From: the human T2T-CHM13v2.0 reference genome, Homo sapiens
Strand: one strand, 5' to 3'
Assembly (NCBI RefSeq): GCF_009914755.1
Contig: NC_060937.1
DNA length: 64,000 nucleotides
This document shows positions 9,651 through 29,225 of the stretch, piece by piece; position 1 is the first letter of the stretch, and each line of letters starts with the position of its first letter. A model generated the notes under the pieces. It made no database searches, had not been told where the DNA came from, and was given only the letters and a program-made list of their open reading frames with translations. The position numbers and the translations under genes were made by a program.

Positions 9651-9814
9651 AGTGCGTACCAGGATACCTTGGAATTCCTGATGGCCAGTCGGGATTTCTG
9701 CAAGTCCTTCTGGAAAATCTGTGTTGAACATCATGCCTTCTTTAGACTTTTTGAAGAGCCCAAACCAAAGCCCAAGCCCGTCCTCTTTAGCCGGGGGTCA
9801 TCATTTCGGTTCAG
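9651..9814 (+). CDS. FARP1: FARP1 coding exon 10 (FERM F3 end / FERM-adjacent)
   Basis: ccctttttAG|AGT...TTCAG|GTGAGG; 164 nt; [54 protein letters not shown](S). Confidence 0.98.
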
Positions 9815-13413: not shown

Positions 13414-14201
13414 GTCAGTGATGGCGCTGTCCTATGATAACTCTGCTTTTCCCCACACTTCCTCCACGGAGCCCTGGGCTTCAGAGCGGGCTTTCTTGTT
13501 CTCTGTCCTTTCCTTTGGGGTTTTTAGCAGATGAGAATCTGATTATGGGCCTTGGCTTTGACCAGATATAGGCTTTGTGCCATGTGCCGGCAGCCTGGGC
13601 TCAGAGGCCGTGGAGTGTGTTGTGTTTTCAGCTGCCTTCTCATCTCCCATGCGGTGCTCTAAGCCACTGAGAACTCAGCTCAGCGGCGGAACCATCGCGG
13701 CAGTGGGCAGAGCTGAGACTGACTCTCCAGCTAAATGGGTCCACTTGGGAAGAGATGGGGACCCGCTTTGTAACCAATGGGTGTAACTCCTGCCTGGTGC
13801 CAAGGCCAGAAGCCTTTGCTGGCACAGAACTGGTCGGCGAGTTCCCAGAGCTTGTATTACAGGGCAGTGACCACAATTGGCAGTAAGAGACATTATCACT
13901 CTTGCTCTGAGGGTGGCAAAAGCTCGTTTTCCCTGGAGTTGGTCTCTGGGTAAGTTCTCAGGGCTTTCTCTAAAAGAGAAAAAGAAACTTGGGGAAGAAT
14001 ATAAAGGAGGTTTCATCGTGTGAATCCAAAAAAACCCCTTTCCCCGTCCAGGCTGCCCTGAGAAGTATAAGCAAACATGTCCTTTGTCGTTTTTCTGATG
14101 ACTGTGTCAACTTGCCTTCAGGGGTCCCTGATGTGCCTGCCCATCCTTCCCTGGAGACCCCCTGTGGGCTGGAAGGGCCGTCTTGTTCCGTAGAAGCTTT
14201 A

Positions 14202-14645
<444 letters not shown>

Positions 14646-14649
14646 AACC

Positions 14650-15500
14650 CCAGCATGAGTCGGCGGGTCCTGGAAAGCAGAGACCGGGCCGGGCTTGTGC
14701 TGCCGGGAACAGTGCTGTCAGCCGCCACGCCCTGAAGGAACCTTCTGGATCATGCCCAGATGTGCCTCCGTGATTGCTGCTAGGCCAGAGAGCTCCGGGG
14801 CAGTTCTCCCGCCGCAGAGGCCTCGGGTGTTCTTGCCTGGCTCTCCTTTTCTGTTTTCAGCCTTGGAATAACAGTCTCCCTCTTCTCTATCTCTCCGCAC
14901 CTTTTTCCCCACCCCACCCAGTCTCAGCAGAGCACCAGCCTTACATTTGGAGAAGGTGCCGAATCTCCAGGGGGCCAGAGCTGCCGGCGAGGAAAGGAAC
15001 CGAAGGTTTCCGCCGGGGAGCCGGGGTCGCACCCGAGCCCTGCGCCGAGGAGAAGCCCCGCGGGTAACAAGCAGGCGGACGGAGCCGCCTCGGCGCCCAC
15101 GGAGGAAGAGGAGGAGGTCGTTAAGGATAGGACCCAGCAGAGTAAACCTCAGCCCCCGCAGCCAAGCACAGGTCCAGCATCCCGGGCTGCCAGAGGCAGC
15201 AGTACTTCCATTCCTTTCATTGACTGCAGTGACGTAGATAGCGAATACGACCTTCTTAGAGAACAAGCGTCCCGATCCCGGTCCCGATCCCGGTCCCGGT
15301 CCCAAACAAATGACAATTATGAGGGTGATCTGACCAGCGGTGTCTATCTGCTGTCCAGGGAGGAGGGGCGAAGAGAGGCTGGGCGTAGGGCTTCCCCGCA
15401 CTCTGCGAAGTCCTCCCGGCCTCCTTCCGGAGAATTCCTTGATGACGATTCAGCAGACATCACCTTTGATATGAGCGGGAGCCCTCGACTCCCAAGGCAT
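14650..15500. promoter_or_regulatory. Intragenic CpG-rich island over exon 13 and the start of its extension
   Basis: Visibly dense CG dinucleotides and high GC compared with the flanking introns; not quantified. Confidence 0.55.
14922..15171 (+). CDS. FARP1: FARP1 coding exon 13 (low-complexity linker; canonical form)
   Basis: Long pyrimidine tract + AG at 14920-14921; 250 nt; SQQSTSLTFGEGAESPGG...KPQPPQPST(G); ends in phase 1 at a weak donor CAG|GTCCAG and joins exon 14 as G|GC. Confidence 0.94.
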
Positions 15501-16163
15501 AGCTCTCTCATAGATGAAATGTTCAAGGGCTCGGCTGGTCACAGCCCCCTGGCCACCCCATTGTCTCCCAGCAGCAGCAGTTCAAGTCCAAATATGAGTT
15601 GGGACAGAACTGGGTCTCAAGGCTATGTTTCGGAAAATGGACATGACCATAGAGAGGGGAGTATGGGAGAAGACACTCTCCCGGACCAGGGTCCTCCTTA
15701 TGAACGCTGGTCCCCCACCTCGCCAAGGCCATACATGCGGAATCTTCCTGGTAGATGTAATAAGTCAGAGACAGATCCACTCATCCTTAGCCAGGTAGCA
15801 TTTACCCCGGAGGCCATGGATGGGCTTGGTGGCCGTGGGAAGTGGGGGCAAGCCAGCGCAGCTGCTCCCGAGGGTAGAAGCCTGGCTAATGGCACACCCC
15901 CCATGGGTGCAGCCTCTAAGGTCCCTGCTGTGCAGTCGGTGTGTGCCAGAGGCATGGCGGGGCAGCTGGCACCCCTGCAAGTGACCGAGGGCTCCACCAG
16001 CAGTGGGACTGAGTCCAGTGAGTCAGACTCTGAGATGCTGATCCCCGGGAGTCAGCCCCTCATATTTGGTAACCCCGCAGTGCTGCGTTCCCCGTCCCTG
16101 CTGAGAAGCCGGGGGTCCTTGGGTGGCCTGCGTTTGAGTGAGGAACAGGAGGAGGATGAGTGA
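15172..16163 (+). CDS. FARP1: Putative in-frame extension of exon 13 (alternative terminal coding segment, about 330 aa)
   Basis: Hand translation from 15171 (GPASRAARGSSTSIPFIDCSDVDSEYDLLREQASRSRSRSRSRSQTND...EFLDDDSADITFD) has no stop and runs in frame into track ORF 15471..16163, ending SEEQEEDE-TGA. Confidence 0.7.
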
Positions 16164-17264
16164 GGAGGCCAGGAGCCAAGTCTTCAGCCCGAGCAACCTG
16201 GGGTCACGAGACCAGGGTTTCCCTAAAGATCATCTGTTCTAGTGACTCATTCATTTGTAGTCTACATTTGTTAGAGGAGATTTTGGACAGGCACATGTTT
16301 GAAAGGGTCTGCCTGACTTCTAAAATCGTTAAGAAAAACAAAACTTCACATAAGTGGCTTGCTTTCCAGAAAAGGTGGGCAAGATAAACAGCAAGTCCTA
16401 ATGACAAGTTCTCAGGAGCTTGTTTATTTTGCTGGTTGAAGGCTAGGAAGAAACACTTTATTATGAATCCGATCATGTGTATAGTGTGTTATATTTATAT
16501 GGCAATTTTCTGTGTATGTTCAATTATGCAGCTCACCCTCCTGTTGGTTGAGAGTTTGAACTGAAGCATCCTTGAGATTACAGAAAAAGGTTTCCCATTC
16601 TCCCCTTCTTTAAAAGGAGGGCTGCTTTGTCCATGCCTCATGAAGTGAGGAATTGGCACTATTCAAGGCCAAGTGTAAATTGATAGCTAGTTGAGATTAT
16701 GTTGGTGAAATCTTTCGTCAAGAATAATGAATATTTTAATGGGAAGAATTTGGGGTTATTTCTGCTTCCCAGGCTTCCTGTGAAATACTAGAAAAGTTGT
16801 CAAATCTTCATGAATTGTGATCTACTAGGGATTGCTGGTTTGGTTTAGGTTTGCATTGGTGGATCATATTGTTATGTTTTAAGAAGTACAATTCTGCCTC
16901 TCAGAATCTCTTGGTGAAACTGAAATCCTATTGAGTGTGGATGCAGGGAAGAGCAACACCTTGAAATAGGCACTGTTGTCACCAGTAGGTCAACAAACTA
17001 AATGCCTGCCTTTGAATTGTGTACAGCGCAGAGAAGGACTGTTTTCCAGCATGGTTGCTCTTGGTTGGTGTACAGACACAGTCTTACCATTCACACTCTG
17101 GTGAACAGTGTCCTCTGTTGGGAATAGTGATACTTGGATGTTTCTCTGAGCCAGAAAAAAGAAAATGTAAGGAGAGAGAGATTGACTTCTTTTTAAATCT
17201 TGCCCACCAGTGTCACTGCCTTTCACCCAGCATTCCTGCATTTTAGATTAAAGAGCCTGGTTTT

Positions 17265-17420
17265 CACTTGAAGTTTCTCTGCCTTAGCTGCACGTTGCAA
17301 TTTTCTGAGATATTTTAAAAATTAGTGATGCCGGGACCCTGACCCTAGGGATTTTGATCTCATTGGTCTTGAGTGCTCCTTGGGCTTCCCAGCTGTTTGT
17401 ACTGGGCAGCCAGGGTCACT
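17265..17420. mobile_element. MER5-like hAT element (old)
   Basis: ccttagctgcacgttgcaat...gatgccgggaccctgaccctagggattttgatctcattggtc...gcagccagggt. Confidence 0.5.
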
Positions 17421-18018
17421 TCTTACCCAGGCTGTCTCGAATCTAGTGGAATACAGTAAAAGTGTTAGCTAAATTTTTGGCTTGCTTGCAGAGTAAGAAA
17501 AACATCACAAACAAACTGCTTTTTCTTGATGCCTGTGATTTGTACTTTTCAGCCTTAGGTACTTTTTTTTTTGAAAAAAAAAAAAAAAAAAAAAGAAAGG
17601 ATAAATTGTAGAATAAAATTTTTAGATCCTAAGTAACTACAAAATTATTGAAAAGAGACCTAACAAGGATAGCTCCCTGATGTGCCACCATACCAGGGCC
17701 TCACTGGGCTCATCACGCGACCCGATCACAAGGGAAGCACCAGGCGTGCTTAGGACACTGAGTAGAATTTGGCAGCAGCATAGAAAATGGAGGAGGATCG
17801 GCTCGTCTCATTGACAAATGATATCTGTCCACATGAATGTCCAGAAGTCGGTTTTAAAGAGTCTGAACACTTAATCCATTTTTATACAGACTTTTTTTGT
17901 TTTGTTTTCCTAATCATTTGATTCAGTGCCTGATTGAATCAAGCTGATTGTTGGATCGTTTGAGAGTTGTTCATTGAAGTAGTCTATTTACGCCTTGCTT
18001 TGAATTTATATATTTAAC

Positions 18019-29037: not shown

Positions 29038-29225
29038 GCTCCCTGACTGGCAGTCCTCACCTTTCCGAGCTGTCTGTGAACTCGCAGGGGGGAGTGGCCC
29101 CTGCCAACGTGACCTTGTCTCCCAACCTGAGCCCCGACACCAAGCAGGCCTCTCCCTTGATCAGCCCGCTGCTGAATGACCAGGCCTGCCCCCGGACGGA
29201 CGATGAGGATGAGGGCCGGAGGAAG
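29038..29225 (+). CDS. FARP1: FARP1 coding exon 14
   Basis: caaacAG|GC...AGGAAG|GTACAG; 188 nt; SLTGSPHLSELSVNSQGGVAPANVTLSPNLSPDTKQASPLISPLLNDQACPRTDDEDEGRRK. Confidence 0.96.

What the first reader, a model, noticed from the sequence alone, without database searches (positions are those of the whole stretch)
14922..16163. Hidden ~330-aa alternative C-terminus: exon 13 reads through its donor, giving a GEF-less, FERM-only FARP1
Seen: the exon 13 frame stays open across the splice donor for 992 nt. Hand translation of 15171-15470 has no stop and joins ORF 15471..16163 in frame, 413 codons in total from 14922. The ORF track hides this because it begins at an internal Met. The stretch has no recognisable transposon, stays GC-rich, and turns AT-rich soon after the TGA. 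Rough estimate: at 55-60% GC (assumed, not counted), 330 stop-free codons in one pre-specified frame has a chance of order 1e-5. The peptide looks like a disordered scaffold with short hydrophobic/acidic motifs. Inference: an isoform of about 801 aa that keeps FERM and FA but replaces DH-PH-PH, so it could compete for FERM partners (FARP1 binds SynCAM1/CADM1 and acts in plexin signalling) without GEF domains. I do not recall it among curated FARP1 isoforms, though predicted models may include it.
Basis: partly seen in the sequence, partly recalled or inferred. Interest (0 to 1): 0.88.

Follow-up and report, generated by a model that had tools for sequence, protein, structure and literature searches.

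The report
FARP1 FRMD7-like alternative C-terminal tail
Reading FARP1 exon 13 past its weak splice donor gives a real, shark-to-human conserved 330-residue disordered tail related to the tail of the nystagmus protein FRMD7; it is already in sequence databases but apparently unstudied.

Summary
The frame from 14922 is open for 413 codons to a TGA at 16161-16163. By base composition the chance is about 6e-6, and 0 of 20,000 shuffles stayed open.

It is coding sequence, not a lucky intron frame. The 330-residue tail finds FERM+FA+tail proteins of about 785-800 aa from primates to elephant shark and teleosts. In 20 of 20 orthologue comparisons it is better conserved than the constitutive part of exon 13.

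FARP2 has the same read-through tail (profile match E 6.5e-13). The FARP1 tail's C-terminal block matches the FRMD7 C-terminus (E 7e-8).

The exon 13 donor scores weakest of the window's 18 donors. AlphaFold2 predicts the tail as disordered.

Best reading: a composite terminal exon gives an 801-aa, GEF-less, FRMD7-type FARP1.

It is not new as a model. A 797-aa partial human record and many orthologue models exist, and a mouse "isoform 2" splices most of the tail into the GEF form. I found no paper on it. Function remains inferred.

The parts
14922..15171 (+). Constitutive part of FARP1 exon 13 (residues 389-471, plus the first base of codon 472); a variable linker after the FA domain
   Evidence: Hub annotation; translation; residue numbering from P0002
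15172..15177 (+). Canonical exon 13 splice donor CAG|GTCCAG. It matches the GTRAGT consensus only at the GT and scores lowest of the 18 annotated donors in the window
   Evidence: score -3.2 against 0.97 to 7.1 for the other 17. The scoring matrix is my own approximate recalled consensus, not a curated tool
15172..16160 (+). Read-through coding extension: the 330-residue tail (residues 472-801, counting the split codon that starts at 15171)
   Evidence: Open frame; orthologues from primates to elephant shark and teleosts; more conserved than exon 13 proper in 20 of 20 comparisons; predicted disordered
15171..15263 (+). Best-conserved tail block, GPASRAARGSSTSIPFIDCSDVDSEYDLLRE (residues 472-502)
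   Evidence: mean column identity 0.84-0.92 across 21 FARP1 orthologue rows. FRMD7 has a collinear SSSSFPFIYMD by eye, not statistically significant
15269..15303 (+). In-frame hexamer repeat encoding a Ser-Arg run; longer in the human and orang-utan rows than in the other mammal rows
   Evidence: period 6, 5.8 copies; tails printed
15429..15530 (+). Blocks GEFLDDDSADITF and SGSPRLPRHSSLIDEMFKG, shared with the FARP2 tail (EEFIDDDPADISFF) and with a non-mammalian FRMD7 fragment (PLPRHASLVDDV)
15543..15647 (+). Conserved Ser/Pro-rich block SPLATPLSP...SWDRTGSQGYVSENGHD
   Evidence: column identity 0.76-0.81
15759..15794 (+). Conserved block NKSETDPLILSQ
15874..15879 (+). Candidate distal donor G|GTAGAA, in the same phase as the canonical donor. 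It lies at the exact point where mouse isoform 2 (1278 aa) leaves the tail for exon 14. Use in human would add 234 residues to the GEF isoform
   Evidence: the BLASTP alignment ends at residue 318 of P0001, which is nt 15873-15875. Use in human was not tested
16008..16148 (+). C-terminal acidic-serine cluster and GSL.L.EE block, homologous to the FRMD7 C-terminus
   Evidence: hhalign probability 94.6%, E 7.1e-8, 43 columns; FRMD7 fragment P0062 against elephant-shark FARP1 short form E 2e-9
16161..16163 (+). TGA stop of the tail isoform
17247..17252 (+). First polyadenylation-signal hexamer after the stop (ATTAAA, 1.08 kb downstream); candidate only
   Evidence: there are no 3'-end data in these tools
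17612..17617 (+). First AATAAA after the stop (1.45 kb downstream); candidate only
29038..29225 (+). Exon 14, the acceptor used when exon 13 is spliced; it starts the SLTGSPHLSEL segment that leads to DH-PH-PH
   Evidence: Hub annotation; junction seen in P0018 and P0011

Best explanation
FARP1 exon 13 is a composite exon with two or three fates.

1. If its very weak donor at 15171|15172 is used, the mRNA goes on to exon 14 and encodes the 1045-aa FERM-FA-DH-PH-PH exchange factor.
2. If the donor is bypassed, translation continues for 330 more codons to the TGA at 16161. The transcript most likely ends at a polyadenylation site 1-1.5 kb further on. The product is an 801-aa protein: FERM, FA, then a long disordered, Ser/Pro/acid-rich tail studded with conserved short motifs.
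3. A distal donor at 15873|15874 may also splice the first 234 tail residues into the GEF form, as in mouse isoform 2.

The tail belongs to an old vertebrate family. FARP2 encodes one in the same way, and FRMD7 is the paralogue in which only this form remains. C. elegans frm-3 shows the same two-isoform architecture.

Shown here: the open frame, its conservation, the paralogue homology, the weak donor, and the predicted disorder.

Inferred: polyadenylation inside intron 13, expression in human tissues, and function. The most likely function is FRMD7-like. The protein would be a membrane-targeted scaffold that uses FERM-FA for receptors or CASK-type partners. Its tail motifs, several of which look like basophilic-kinase or CK2 sites, would recruit regulators such as RhoGDI. 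It would therefore act without intrinsic GEF activity.
For: - Open frame of 413 codons, P about 6e-6, 0 of 20,000 shuffles open.
- 34 proteins at E<=0.001. Of these, 22 have FERM (mostly with FA) and no RhoGEF and are 607-811 aa; they include a 100%-identical 797-aa human record. Tail identity is 58% in Tasmanian devil, about 55% in birds, 41-44% in frogs, 41% in elephant shark and sturgeon, and 28-36% in teleosts.
- an exhaustive HMMER search of 1.84 billion representatives gave 27 hits at E<=0.001.
- the tail is more conserved than the constitutive exon 13 residues in 20 of 20 orthologue rows (for example X. tropicalis 42% against 28%).
- P0009 (793 aa) lies on a 3,695-bp contig and P0017 (786 aa) on a 2,974-bp contig. 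These are too short to hold introns, so they are transcript-derived.
- FARP2: a 476-aa open frame across the equivalent donor, with 146 homologues including a 795-aa mouse UniProt entry. hhalign FARP1 tail against FARP2 tail: 97.9%, E 6.5e-13, 259 columns.
- FRMD7: hhalign 94.6%, E 7.1e-8. The bridging fragment P0062 matches human FRMD7 at E 1e-26, elephant-shark FARP1 short form at E 2e-9 and 2e-5, and the human tail at E 7.2e-4 library-wide.
- Same exon logic: FARP1 exon 13 and FRMD7 exon 12 both start in phase 0 just after FA. The FARP1 and FARP2 donors are both phase 1.
- Weakest donor of 18 in the window. G+C falls after the stop.
- Literature, passages read: frm-3 makes FRM-3A (FERM-FA plus a domain-less C-terminus) and FRM-3B (GEF plus 2 PH) (PMC7260190). 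Full-length FRMD7, needing both FERM and the C-terminus, binds RhoGDI-alpha and activates Rac1 (PMC3742540).
Against: - None of my tools gives direct human RNA, ribosome or peptide evidence. The human record P0002 is labelled partial and stops 4 residues before the TGA.
- RefSeq's three curated human transcripts do not include the extension (hub table).
- The polyadenylation hexamers are bare consensus matches.
- G+C at codon position 3 is not raised (0.57 against 0.59 at positions 1 and 2), so there is no compositional coding signal.
- The orthologue rows were found through the tail itself, so they cannot show in how many species the frame is broken.
- FRMD7 homology is significant only over the last 43 columns. 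FARP2 against FRMD7 is not significant. The whole-genome search with the tail found neither paralogue.
- 12 of the 34 hits carry tail sequence inside GEF-containing models, so part of the conservation could serve an insert isoform.
- The donor score rests on an approximate matrix that I recalled.
Confidence: 0.8

Rival explanations
1. The tail sequence is used mainly as an internal insert. A distal donor inside the read-through (human candidate 15873|15874) joins about 234 extra residues to exon 14, giving a GEF isoform of about 1279 aa. On this view the GEF-less terminal form is a minor by-product.
For: Mouse protein P0018, named isoform 2 (1278 aa), carries tail residues up to the homologue of human nt 15873 and then exon 14. 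Human keeps a GT in the same phase at that spot. In one search, 12 of 34 hits combine tail sequence with RhoGEF and PH.
Against: Conservation continues beyond the distal donor. The last ~50 residues (acidic-serine cluster, FGNP, GSL.L.EE) are conserved to elephant shark and are the part homologous to FRMD7. These residues are translated only if the frame is read to its stop. 22 of 34 hits are GEF-less models, and two lie on transcript-sized contigs. The long models leave the tail at different points in different species, which is typical of automated prediction. The two uses are not exclusive.
Confidence: 0.1
2. Ancestral FRMD7-like terminal exon that is decaying in mammals or humans: still open by descent, but no longer expressed or selected.
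For: Mammalian tails end about 20 residues earlier than those of bird, reptile, frog and fish, which run on to ...DEDG..VFSC. Curated human RefSeq lacks the form. Only 2 transcript-sized FARP1 contigs turned up, against 18 such rows (source lgn only) for FARP2.
Against: Human, orang-utan, squirrel monkey, lemur, bats, pig and hamster all keep the frame at 72-95% identity to human, never below the adjacent constitutive exon 13 residues. A 990-nt frame at 58% G+C would not stay open by chance.
Confidence: 0.06
3. Chance open frame, or a conserved non-coding intronic element, with no protein product.
For: GC-rich sequence has few stops. The reverse-strand frames also carry only 4-11 stops. No Pfam family matches and there is no solved structure.
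Against: P is about 6e-6 for the pre-specified frame. Similarity at the amino-acid level reaches cartilaginous fish, with many length changes that all preserve the frame (tails of 311-390 aa). Two paralogues encode homologous tails.
Confidence: 0.02

Closest known systems
FRMD7 (FERM domain-containing 7, X-linked infantile nystagmus gene), 714 aa
   Same: FERM plus FA followed by a long domain-less tail. That tail is encoded by one large terminal exon starting in phase 0 just after FA. The C-terminal acidic-serine / GSLQLDEE block is homologous (94.6%, E 7e-8; via P0062). Two further collinear motif matches (SS.S.PFI; P..RWSP) are seen by eye or in non-significant BLAST pieces.
   Different: FRMD7 has no downstream DH-PH-PH exons, so the tail form is its only form. 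Most of the tail is too diverged for significance. FRMD7's nuclear export signal at the exon 11/12 junction (PMC10830384) was not looked for in FARP1. [quoted passage not shown]
FARP2 read-through isoform (about 795 aa; mouse UniProt D3Z4C0 as named)
   Same: Same gene logic: the exon after FA, a phase-1 donor CAG|GT, and a 325-residue in-frame extension to a stop. The tail is homologous over 259 columns and is conserved from mammals to elephant shark and teleosts.
   Different: About 25% identity to the FARP1 tail, with a different C-terminal end (no GSL.L.EE block) and no significant match to FRMD7. It has many more transcript-sized contigs in the database than FARP1.
C. elegans FRM-3A / FRM-3B
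   Same: One gene gives FERM-FA plus a C-terminus without recognisable domains (FRM-3A), or FERM-FA plus GEF plus 2 PH (FRM-3B). Either isoform, or FERM-FA alone, rescues GABA-A receptor clustering (PMC7260190, passages read).
   Different: The match is in architecture only. I had no FRM-3A sequence to compare, and no invertebrate protein appeared among the hits.
Mouse Farp1 isoform 2 (P0018, 1278 aa)
   Same: Contains exon 13 plus the first ~233 tail residues, 70% identical to human.
   Different: It leaves the tail at a distal donor and keeps DH-PH-PH, so it is an insert isoform and not a GEF-less one.
Composite terminal exons / intronic polyadenylation (textbook case: immunoglobulin mu secreted versus membrane mRNA; recalled)
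   Same: A weak internal 5' splice site competes with a downstream polyA site, so that one exon is either internal or terminal.
   Different: Use of a polyA site in FARP1 intron 13 is inferred from hexamers only.

Membership tests
Composite terminal exon (splice-or-polyadenylate alternative last exon) | Reading frame continues in phase past the internal 5' splice site to an in-frame stop | tested here: met
   413 codons open from 14922 to the TGA at 16161
Composite terminal exon (splice-or-polyadenylate alternative last exon) | Sub-optimal internal 5' splice site | tested here: met
   CAG|GTCCAG scores lowest of 18 donors in the window (approximate recalled matrix). It matches GTRAGT only at the GT (direct reading)
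Composite terminal exon (splice-or-polyadenylate alternative last exon) | Functional cleavage/polyadenylation site downstream of the stop, inside the intron | tested here: inconclusive
   ATTAAA at 17247 and AATAAA at 17612 are consensus matches only; no 3'-end data
Composite terminal exon (splice-or-polyadenylate alternative last exon) | Transcripts that join upstream exons to the extension and end there | not testable with these tools
   Indirect only: human 797-aa partial record P0002, and orthologues encoded whole on contigs of 2,974 and 3,695 bp
FARP/FRMD7 C-terminal tail (no Pfam family exists) | Lies directly after FERM-FA, in a large exon entered in phase 0 | tested here: met
   FARP1 acceptor ...cccag|TCT at 14922; FRMD7 ...tcaag|GTG; FARP2 ...cccag|AGC
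FARP/FRMD7 C-terminal tail (no Pfam family exists) | Sequence homology to the FARP2 tail | tested here: met
   hhalign 97.9%, E 6.5e-13, 259 columns; BLASTP E 2e-4
FARP/FRMD7 C-terminal tail (no Pfam family exists) | Sequence homology to the FRMD7 C-terminal domain | tested here: met
   Met for the last 43 columns only: hhalign 94.6%, E 7.1e-8, with P0062 as bridge. Human-human BLASTP alone gives E 0.67. The rest of the tail is not significant
FARP/FRMD7 C-terminal tail (no Pfam family exists) | Intrinsically disordered with conserved short motifs | tested here: met
   AlphaFold2 on 47 rows: every 10-residue block mean from residue 321 to the end is under 50, and no helix or strand is called after residue 353. 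The FERM domain is confident, mostly 80-96. Motif blocks
FRMD7-like function (CASK binding, RhoGDI-alpha binding, Rac1 activation) | Physical interaction with CASK or RhoGDI-alpha; GEF-independent Rac1 activation | not tested
   Known for FRMD7 only (PMC3633374; PMC3742540)
Dbl-family RhoGEF (canonical FARP1) | DH and PH domains present | tested here: not met
   No Pfam family on exon 13 plus tail. The 22 GEF-less models carry only FERM (mostly with FA) families. The stop at 16161 precedes all DH-PH exons

The most novel reading that the evidence does not exclude
FARP1 and FARP2 each encode, beside the exchange factor, a full FRMD7-type protein. On this reading the three tails form one ancient vertebrate family of disordered motif scaffolds, and the split into a GEF form and a tail form goes back to the bilaterian ancestor (compare FRM-3A/B).

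The FARP tail isoforms would then supply FRMD7-like, GEF-independent signalling (CASK or RhoGDI-linked Rac1 activation) throughout the brain. That would explain why loss of FRMD7 affects little beyond oculomotor and direction-selective circuits.

Published FARP1 work would also have missed or conflated this form. The key Farp1 antibody recognises only the C-terminus of the GEF form (PMC3518221), while knock-downs or deletions of 5' exons remove both forms.
Probability: 0.3. Interest if true: 0.7.

Novelty: already known. Interest (0 to 1): 0.5.

Why it matters
FARP1 is studied as a Rac/Rho exchange factor in synapse and dendrite development and in cancer cell migration. If a substantial share of its output is a GEF-less, FRMD7-like scaffold, three things follow.

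- Phenotypes from whole-gene knock-downs, and FERM-dependent interactions such as SynCAM1 and plexin-A, cannot be assigned to GEF activity alone.
- Antibodies to the canonical C-terminus under-report the gene's products.
- FRMD7's supposedly unique C-terminal domain gains two paralogous relatives. That gives conserved motifs to mutate, and a concrete candidate for the redundancy that FRMD7 researchers have proposed.

The same applies to FARP2. This is still an annotation-level insight. The protein model already exists in databases, and nothing here shows how much of the isoform is made in human tissue.

Tried and rejected
- **Pfam on exon 13 plus tail:** no family.
- **PDB sequence search with the tail:** only a chance hit, E 0.5.
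- **Rfam on 14500-18000:** nothing.
- **Six-frame search of the window's own genome with the tail, and with exon 13:** only self-hits; the rest had E >= 0.0126 with internal stops. The paralogue tails were therefore not found this way. I located FARP2 and FRMD7 through the conserved FERM exon 9651-9812 instead. The 25-residue exon 12 query found only itself.
- **Direct human-human BLASTP, FARP1 tail against the FRMD7 terminal exon:** not significant, E 0.53-0.67. FARP2 against FRMD7 is not significant by BLASTP or by profile.
- **Codon-position G+C:** no coding signal.
- **Literature searches** that found no description of the tail isoform:
  - FARP1 + intronic polyadenylation: 0 papers.
  - FARP1/FARP2 + short or truncated isoform terms: 20 of 436 listed, none relevant.
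  - FARP1 + splice, APA or intron-retention terms.
  - FRMD7 + FARP1 + FARP2 + phylogen: 2 papers, neither on this.
  - Six tail peptides as text: 0 papers.
- **Other FARP1 isoforms in print are different events.** The "short isoform of FARP1" in PMC7507005 uses an alternative exon 3. The short isoform in PMC11477271 is of ANKK1. The FARP1 splicing SNP in PMC11876696 concerns exon 20.
- **UniProt accession C9JME2:** I recalled it as a FARP1 entry, and it is listed as FARP1 in two proteomics tables. I could not check whether it is the tail form, so it carries no weight.
- **Complex prediction:** I did not run a FERM-tail job, because the full-length AlphaFold2 model gave no confident tail segment that would suggest docking.
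- **Supplementary tables** of proteomics papers were not searched; they could hold tail peptides.
Full report
**1. Observation**

Translating window 14922-16163 on the + strand gives 413 residues and then a TGA, with no internal stop. The frame's previous stop is at 14781, inside intron 12.

The annotated exon 13 ends at 15171. The codon at 15171-15173 straddles the donor, and 330 codons lie beyond it.

Over the same stretch the other two forward frames hold 10 and 29 stops, and the three reverse frames hold 4, 7 and 11. The stretch is 58% G+C. From its composition a codon is a stop with p = 0.0356, so 330 open codons in a pre-specified frame has P = 6.4e-6. None of 20,000 shuffles stayed open (a first run timed out).

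G+C falls to 0.41 in the kilobase after the stop. The only repeat is a 35-nt in-frame hexamer array at 15269-15303, which encodes a Ser-Arg run. No Rfam family matches.

**2. It is coding sequence**

The tail alone was searched against 5.8 billion proteins, restricted to the longer proteins. It returned 34 proteins at E <= 0.001 out of 8,000 scored candidates.

- 22 of the 34 have FERM (mostly with FA) domains, no RhoGEF domain, and lengths of 607-811 aa.
[quoted passage not shown] It is 100% identical to the window and ends four residues before the TGA.
- They also include models from orang-utan, squirrel monkey, lemur, bats, pig, hamster, Tasmanian devil (58% tail identity), birds (54-55%), a gecko (50%), frogs (41-44%), elephant shark (41%), sturgeon (41%) and a teleost (31%).

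An exhaustive HMMER scan of 1.84 billion cluster representatives gave 27 hits at E <= 0.001, 19 of them at <= 1e-10. Of these, 22 carry no Pfam domain and are mostly tail-only fragments. The other five carry FERM domains.

I aligned the human record with 20 FARP1 orthologue rows. The tail (residues 472-797) was more conserved than the constitutive exon 13 residues (389-471) in 20 of 20 rows. Examples are Tasmanian devil 60% against 56%, X. tropicalis 42% against 28%, and elephant shark 43% against 32%.

Conservation is blocky. The main blocks are GPASRAARGSSTSIPFIDCSDVDSEYDLL, SQTNDNYEGD, EFLDDDSADITF, SPRLPRHSSLIDEMF, SWDRTGSQGYVSENGHD, NKSETDPLILSQ, EGSTSSGTESS.SDSE, FGNP and GSL.L.EE. Tail lengths range from 311 to 390 residues across species, with the frame kept.

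One caveat applies. These rows were retrieved through the tail itself, so they do not show how often the frame is lost.

Two orthologues are encoded whole on contigs of 3,695 bp (793 aa) and 2,974 bp (786 aa). By the hub table, the coding exons up to exon 13 span more than 250 kb in human. Such contigs must therefore be spliced transcripts. This step is an inference.

**3. Surroundings and regulation**

The exon 13 donor is CAG|GTCCAG and agrees with the GTRAGT consensus only at the GT. With an approximate consensus matrix that I recalled, it scores -3.2. The other 17 annotated donors in the window score 0.97 to 7.1.

The first polyadenylation hexamers after the stop are ATTAAA at 17247 and AATAAA at 17612. 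These are bare consensus matches. A weak internal donor followed by an in-frame stop and polyA signals is the anatomy of a composite terminal exon.

There is also a third possible fate. A mouse protein named isoform 2 (1278 aa) contains exon 13 and the first ~233 tail residues, then continues with exon 14 and DH-PH-PH. Its alignment to the human frame ends exactly at the glycine codon 15873-15875. There the human sequence reads G|GTAGAA, in the same phase as the canonical donor. Whether human uses this site was not testable.

In one search, 12 of the 34 hits combine tail sequence with RhoGEF. They leave the tail at different points in different species, so many are probably automated artefacts.

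**4. Paralogues**

A six-frame search of the window's own genome with the tail, or with exon 13, found only the locus itself. Using the conserved FERM exon 9651-9812, I located FARP2 on contig 2 and FRMD7 on contig 23 and fetched the flanking DNA.

*FARP2.* It has a 476-aa stop-to-stop frame that contains its post-FA exon. The frame crosses a donor CAG|GTGTCG in phase 1 and runs for 325 more codons. This FARP2 tail found 146 proteins at E <= 0.001, again mostly FERM+FA+tail models of about 770-800 aa from mammals to cartilaginous fish and teleosts. They include a 795-aa mouse UniProt entry and a 100%-identical 795-aa protein on a 2,546-bp contig.

*FRMD7.* Its last exon gives a 408-aa frame, of which 364 aa follow the acceptor. 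The query retrieved human FRMD7 (714 aa) at 100% identity. A published nuclear export signal ending ...VEDLRL (PMC10830384) fits my exon start.

*Profile comparisons.* I built the alignments locally.
- FARP1 set: 30 rows. That is 22 of the 23 cut tails, plus 8 tail-only fragments. P0035 was dropped because its C-terminus diverges. GEF-containing models were left out.
- FARP2 set: 26 rows.
- FRMD7 set: 15 rows. That is 14 of the 120 listed mammalian proteins, plus the fragment P0062.
- FARP1 tail against FARP2 tail: probability 97.9%, E 6.5e-13, 259 columns.
- FARP1 tail against FRMD7 C-terminus: 94.6%, E 7.1e-8, 43 columns (TESSDSDSE...GSLQLDEE).
- FARP2 against FRMD7: not significant.

*Independent bridge.* P0062 is a 251-aa fragment that matches human FRMD7 at E 1e-26. 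It also hits the human FARP1 tail at E 7.2e-4 library-wide. It aligns to the elephant-shark FARP1 short form in two collinear blocks, E 2e-9 and 2e-5; the second block is the LPRH.SL.D motif.

Human-human BLASTP alone is weak: E 2e-4 for FARP2 and 0.67 for FRMD7.

*Reading.* All three paralogues carry one family of tails, placed in the same exon position. FRMD7 is the member that has only this form. No Pfam family covers any of these tails, and no solved structure matches.

**5. Structure**

AlphaFold2 was run on the 797-aa human record with 46 aligned FARP1, FARP2 and FRMD7 rows. The FERM domain is confident, with blocks mostly at 80-96. Every 10-residue block mean from residue 321 to the end is below 50, and no helix or strand is called after residue 353.

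The tail is 17.6% Ser, 10.3% Gly, 8.8% Pro and 8.8% Arg. It is best described as an intrinsically disordered region carrying conserved short linear motifs. By my own reading, several look like basophilic-kinase sites (RHSS, RTGS) or acidic casein-kinase-type clusters. I did not run complex prediction, because nothing in the model suggested that the tail docks on FERM.

**6. How it most likely works**

*Shown:* the frame, its selection, the paralogy, the weak donor and the predicted disorder.

*Inferred:* when the donor is not used, cleavage and polyadenylation in intron 13 produces an mRNA for an 801-aa FERM-FA-tail protein. Its stop lies in the last exon, so it should escape nonsense-mediated decay.

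By analogy, the protein would be an FRMD7-like scaffold. FERM-FA would bind membrane partners and CASK-type proteins, and the tail motifs would recruit regulators. The analogy rests on passages I read in three papers.
- C. elegans frm-3 makes FRM-3A (FERM-FA plus a domain-less C-terminus) and FRM-3B (GEF plus 2 PH). Either isoform, or FERM-FA alone, rescues receptor clustering (PMC7260190).
- FRMD7 binds CASK. The authors suggest that FARP1 and FARP2 are redundant partners elsewhere in the brain (PMC3633374).
- Only full-length FRMD7, with both FERM and the C-terminus, binds RhoGDI-alpha and activates Rac1 (PMC3742540).

**7. Known or new**

The protein model is on record, as the human partial entry, many orthologue entries and the mouse insert isoform. 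The finding as stated is therefore already known at database level. It is absent from the three curated RefSeq transcripts in the hub table.

I found no paper describing it. The isoform papers that did surface concern other events.

[quoted passage not shown] The FARP1-FRMD7 tail homology shown here therefore seems not to be in print within the library I searched. Subscription journals and supplementary tables were not covered.

The antibody of the main Farp1 synapse study was raised against the extreme C-terminus of the GEF form (PMC3518221). It cannot detect the tail isoform.

**8. Verdict**

The feature is a real, ancient and apparently unstudied alternative C-terminus of a known kind.

- Confidence that it is genuine coding sequence of a GEF-less FARP1 isoform: 0.8.
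- Interest: 0.5. It would rise if human expression and FRMD7-like function are shown.

Noticed in passing
L025:7155-8384 (G000 contig 2, FARP2 locus): FARP2 has the same hidden feature. Its post-FA exon reads through the donor CAG|GTGTCG (intron starts at L025:7408) for 325 codons to a stop. The tail is conserved from mammals to elephant shark and teleosts (146 hits) and is homologous to the FARP1 tail.
   Followed up: yes
window 15873-15879: G|GTAGAA lies in the same phase as the canonical donor, at the exact point where mouse Farp1 isoform 2 (1278 aa) leaves the tail for exon 14. Human may therefore also make a GEF isoform of about 1279 aa with a 234-residue insert.
   Followed up: partly
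window 15269-15303: An in-frame (GTCCCG)n repeat encodes SRSRSRSRSRS. It is longer in the human and orang-utan rows than in the other mammal rows (which have SQSRSQ-type sequence). This looks like a recent coding repeat expansion that keeps the frame.
   Followed up: partly
window 16107-16163, compared with P0019, P0026, P0030, P0031, P0047: Mammalian FARP1 tails stop at ...EEDE. Bird, reptile, frog, sturgeon and teleost tails run about 20 residues further and end in a conserved ...DEDG..VFSC, with a C-terminal Cys (elephant shark ends ...GVITC). The mammalian lineage seems to have lost this end.
   Followed up: no
P0024 (Xenopus laevis model, 1290 aa): This model reads the whole tail, with no stop, straight into exon 14 and DH-PH-PH, whereas the X. 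tropicalis model ends at ...VFGC. It is either a prediction artefact or a frog-specific full-insert isoform.
   Followed up: no
P0002 (human 797-aa record): The human database protein ends at ...LSEEQ, four residues before the TGA, and is labelled partial. The underlying transcript model appears to be 3'-incomplete, so the true 3' end of the human mRNA seems not to be on record.
   Followed up: partly
PMC3518221, Antibodies section: The Farp1 immunoblot antibody used in the main synapse study targets the extreme C-terminus of the GEF isoform. The tail isoform would have been invisible in that work.
   Followed up: partly
window 13414-13419: The exon 12 donor CAG|GTCAGT also has a C at intron position +3, which is unusual. 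The two exons that flank the FA-linker region therefore both have non-standard donors.
   Followed up: no
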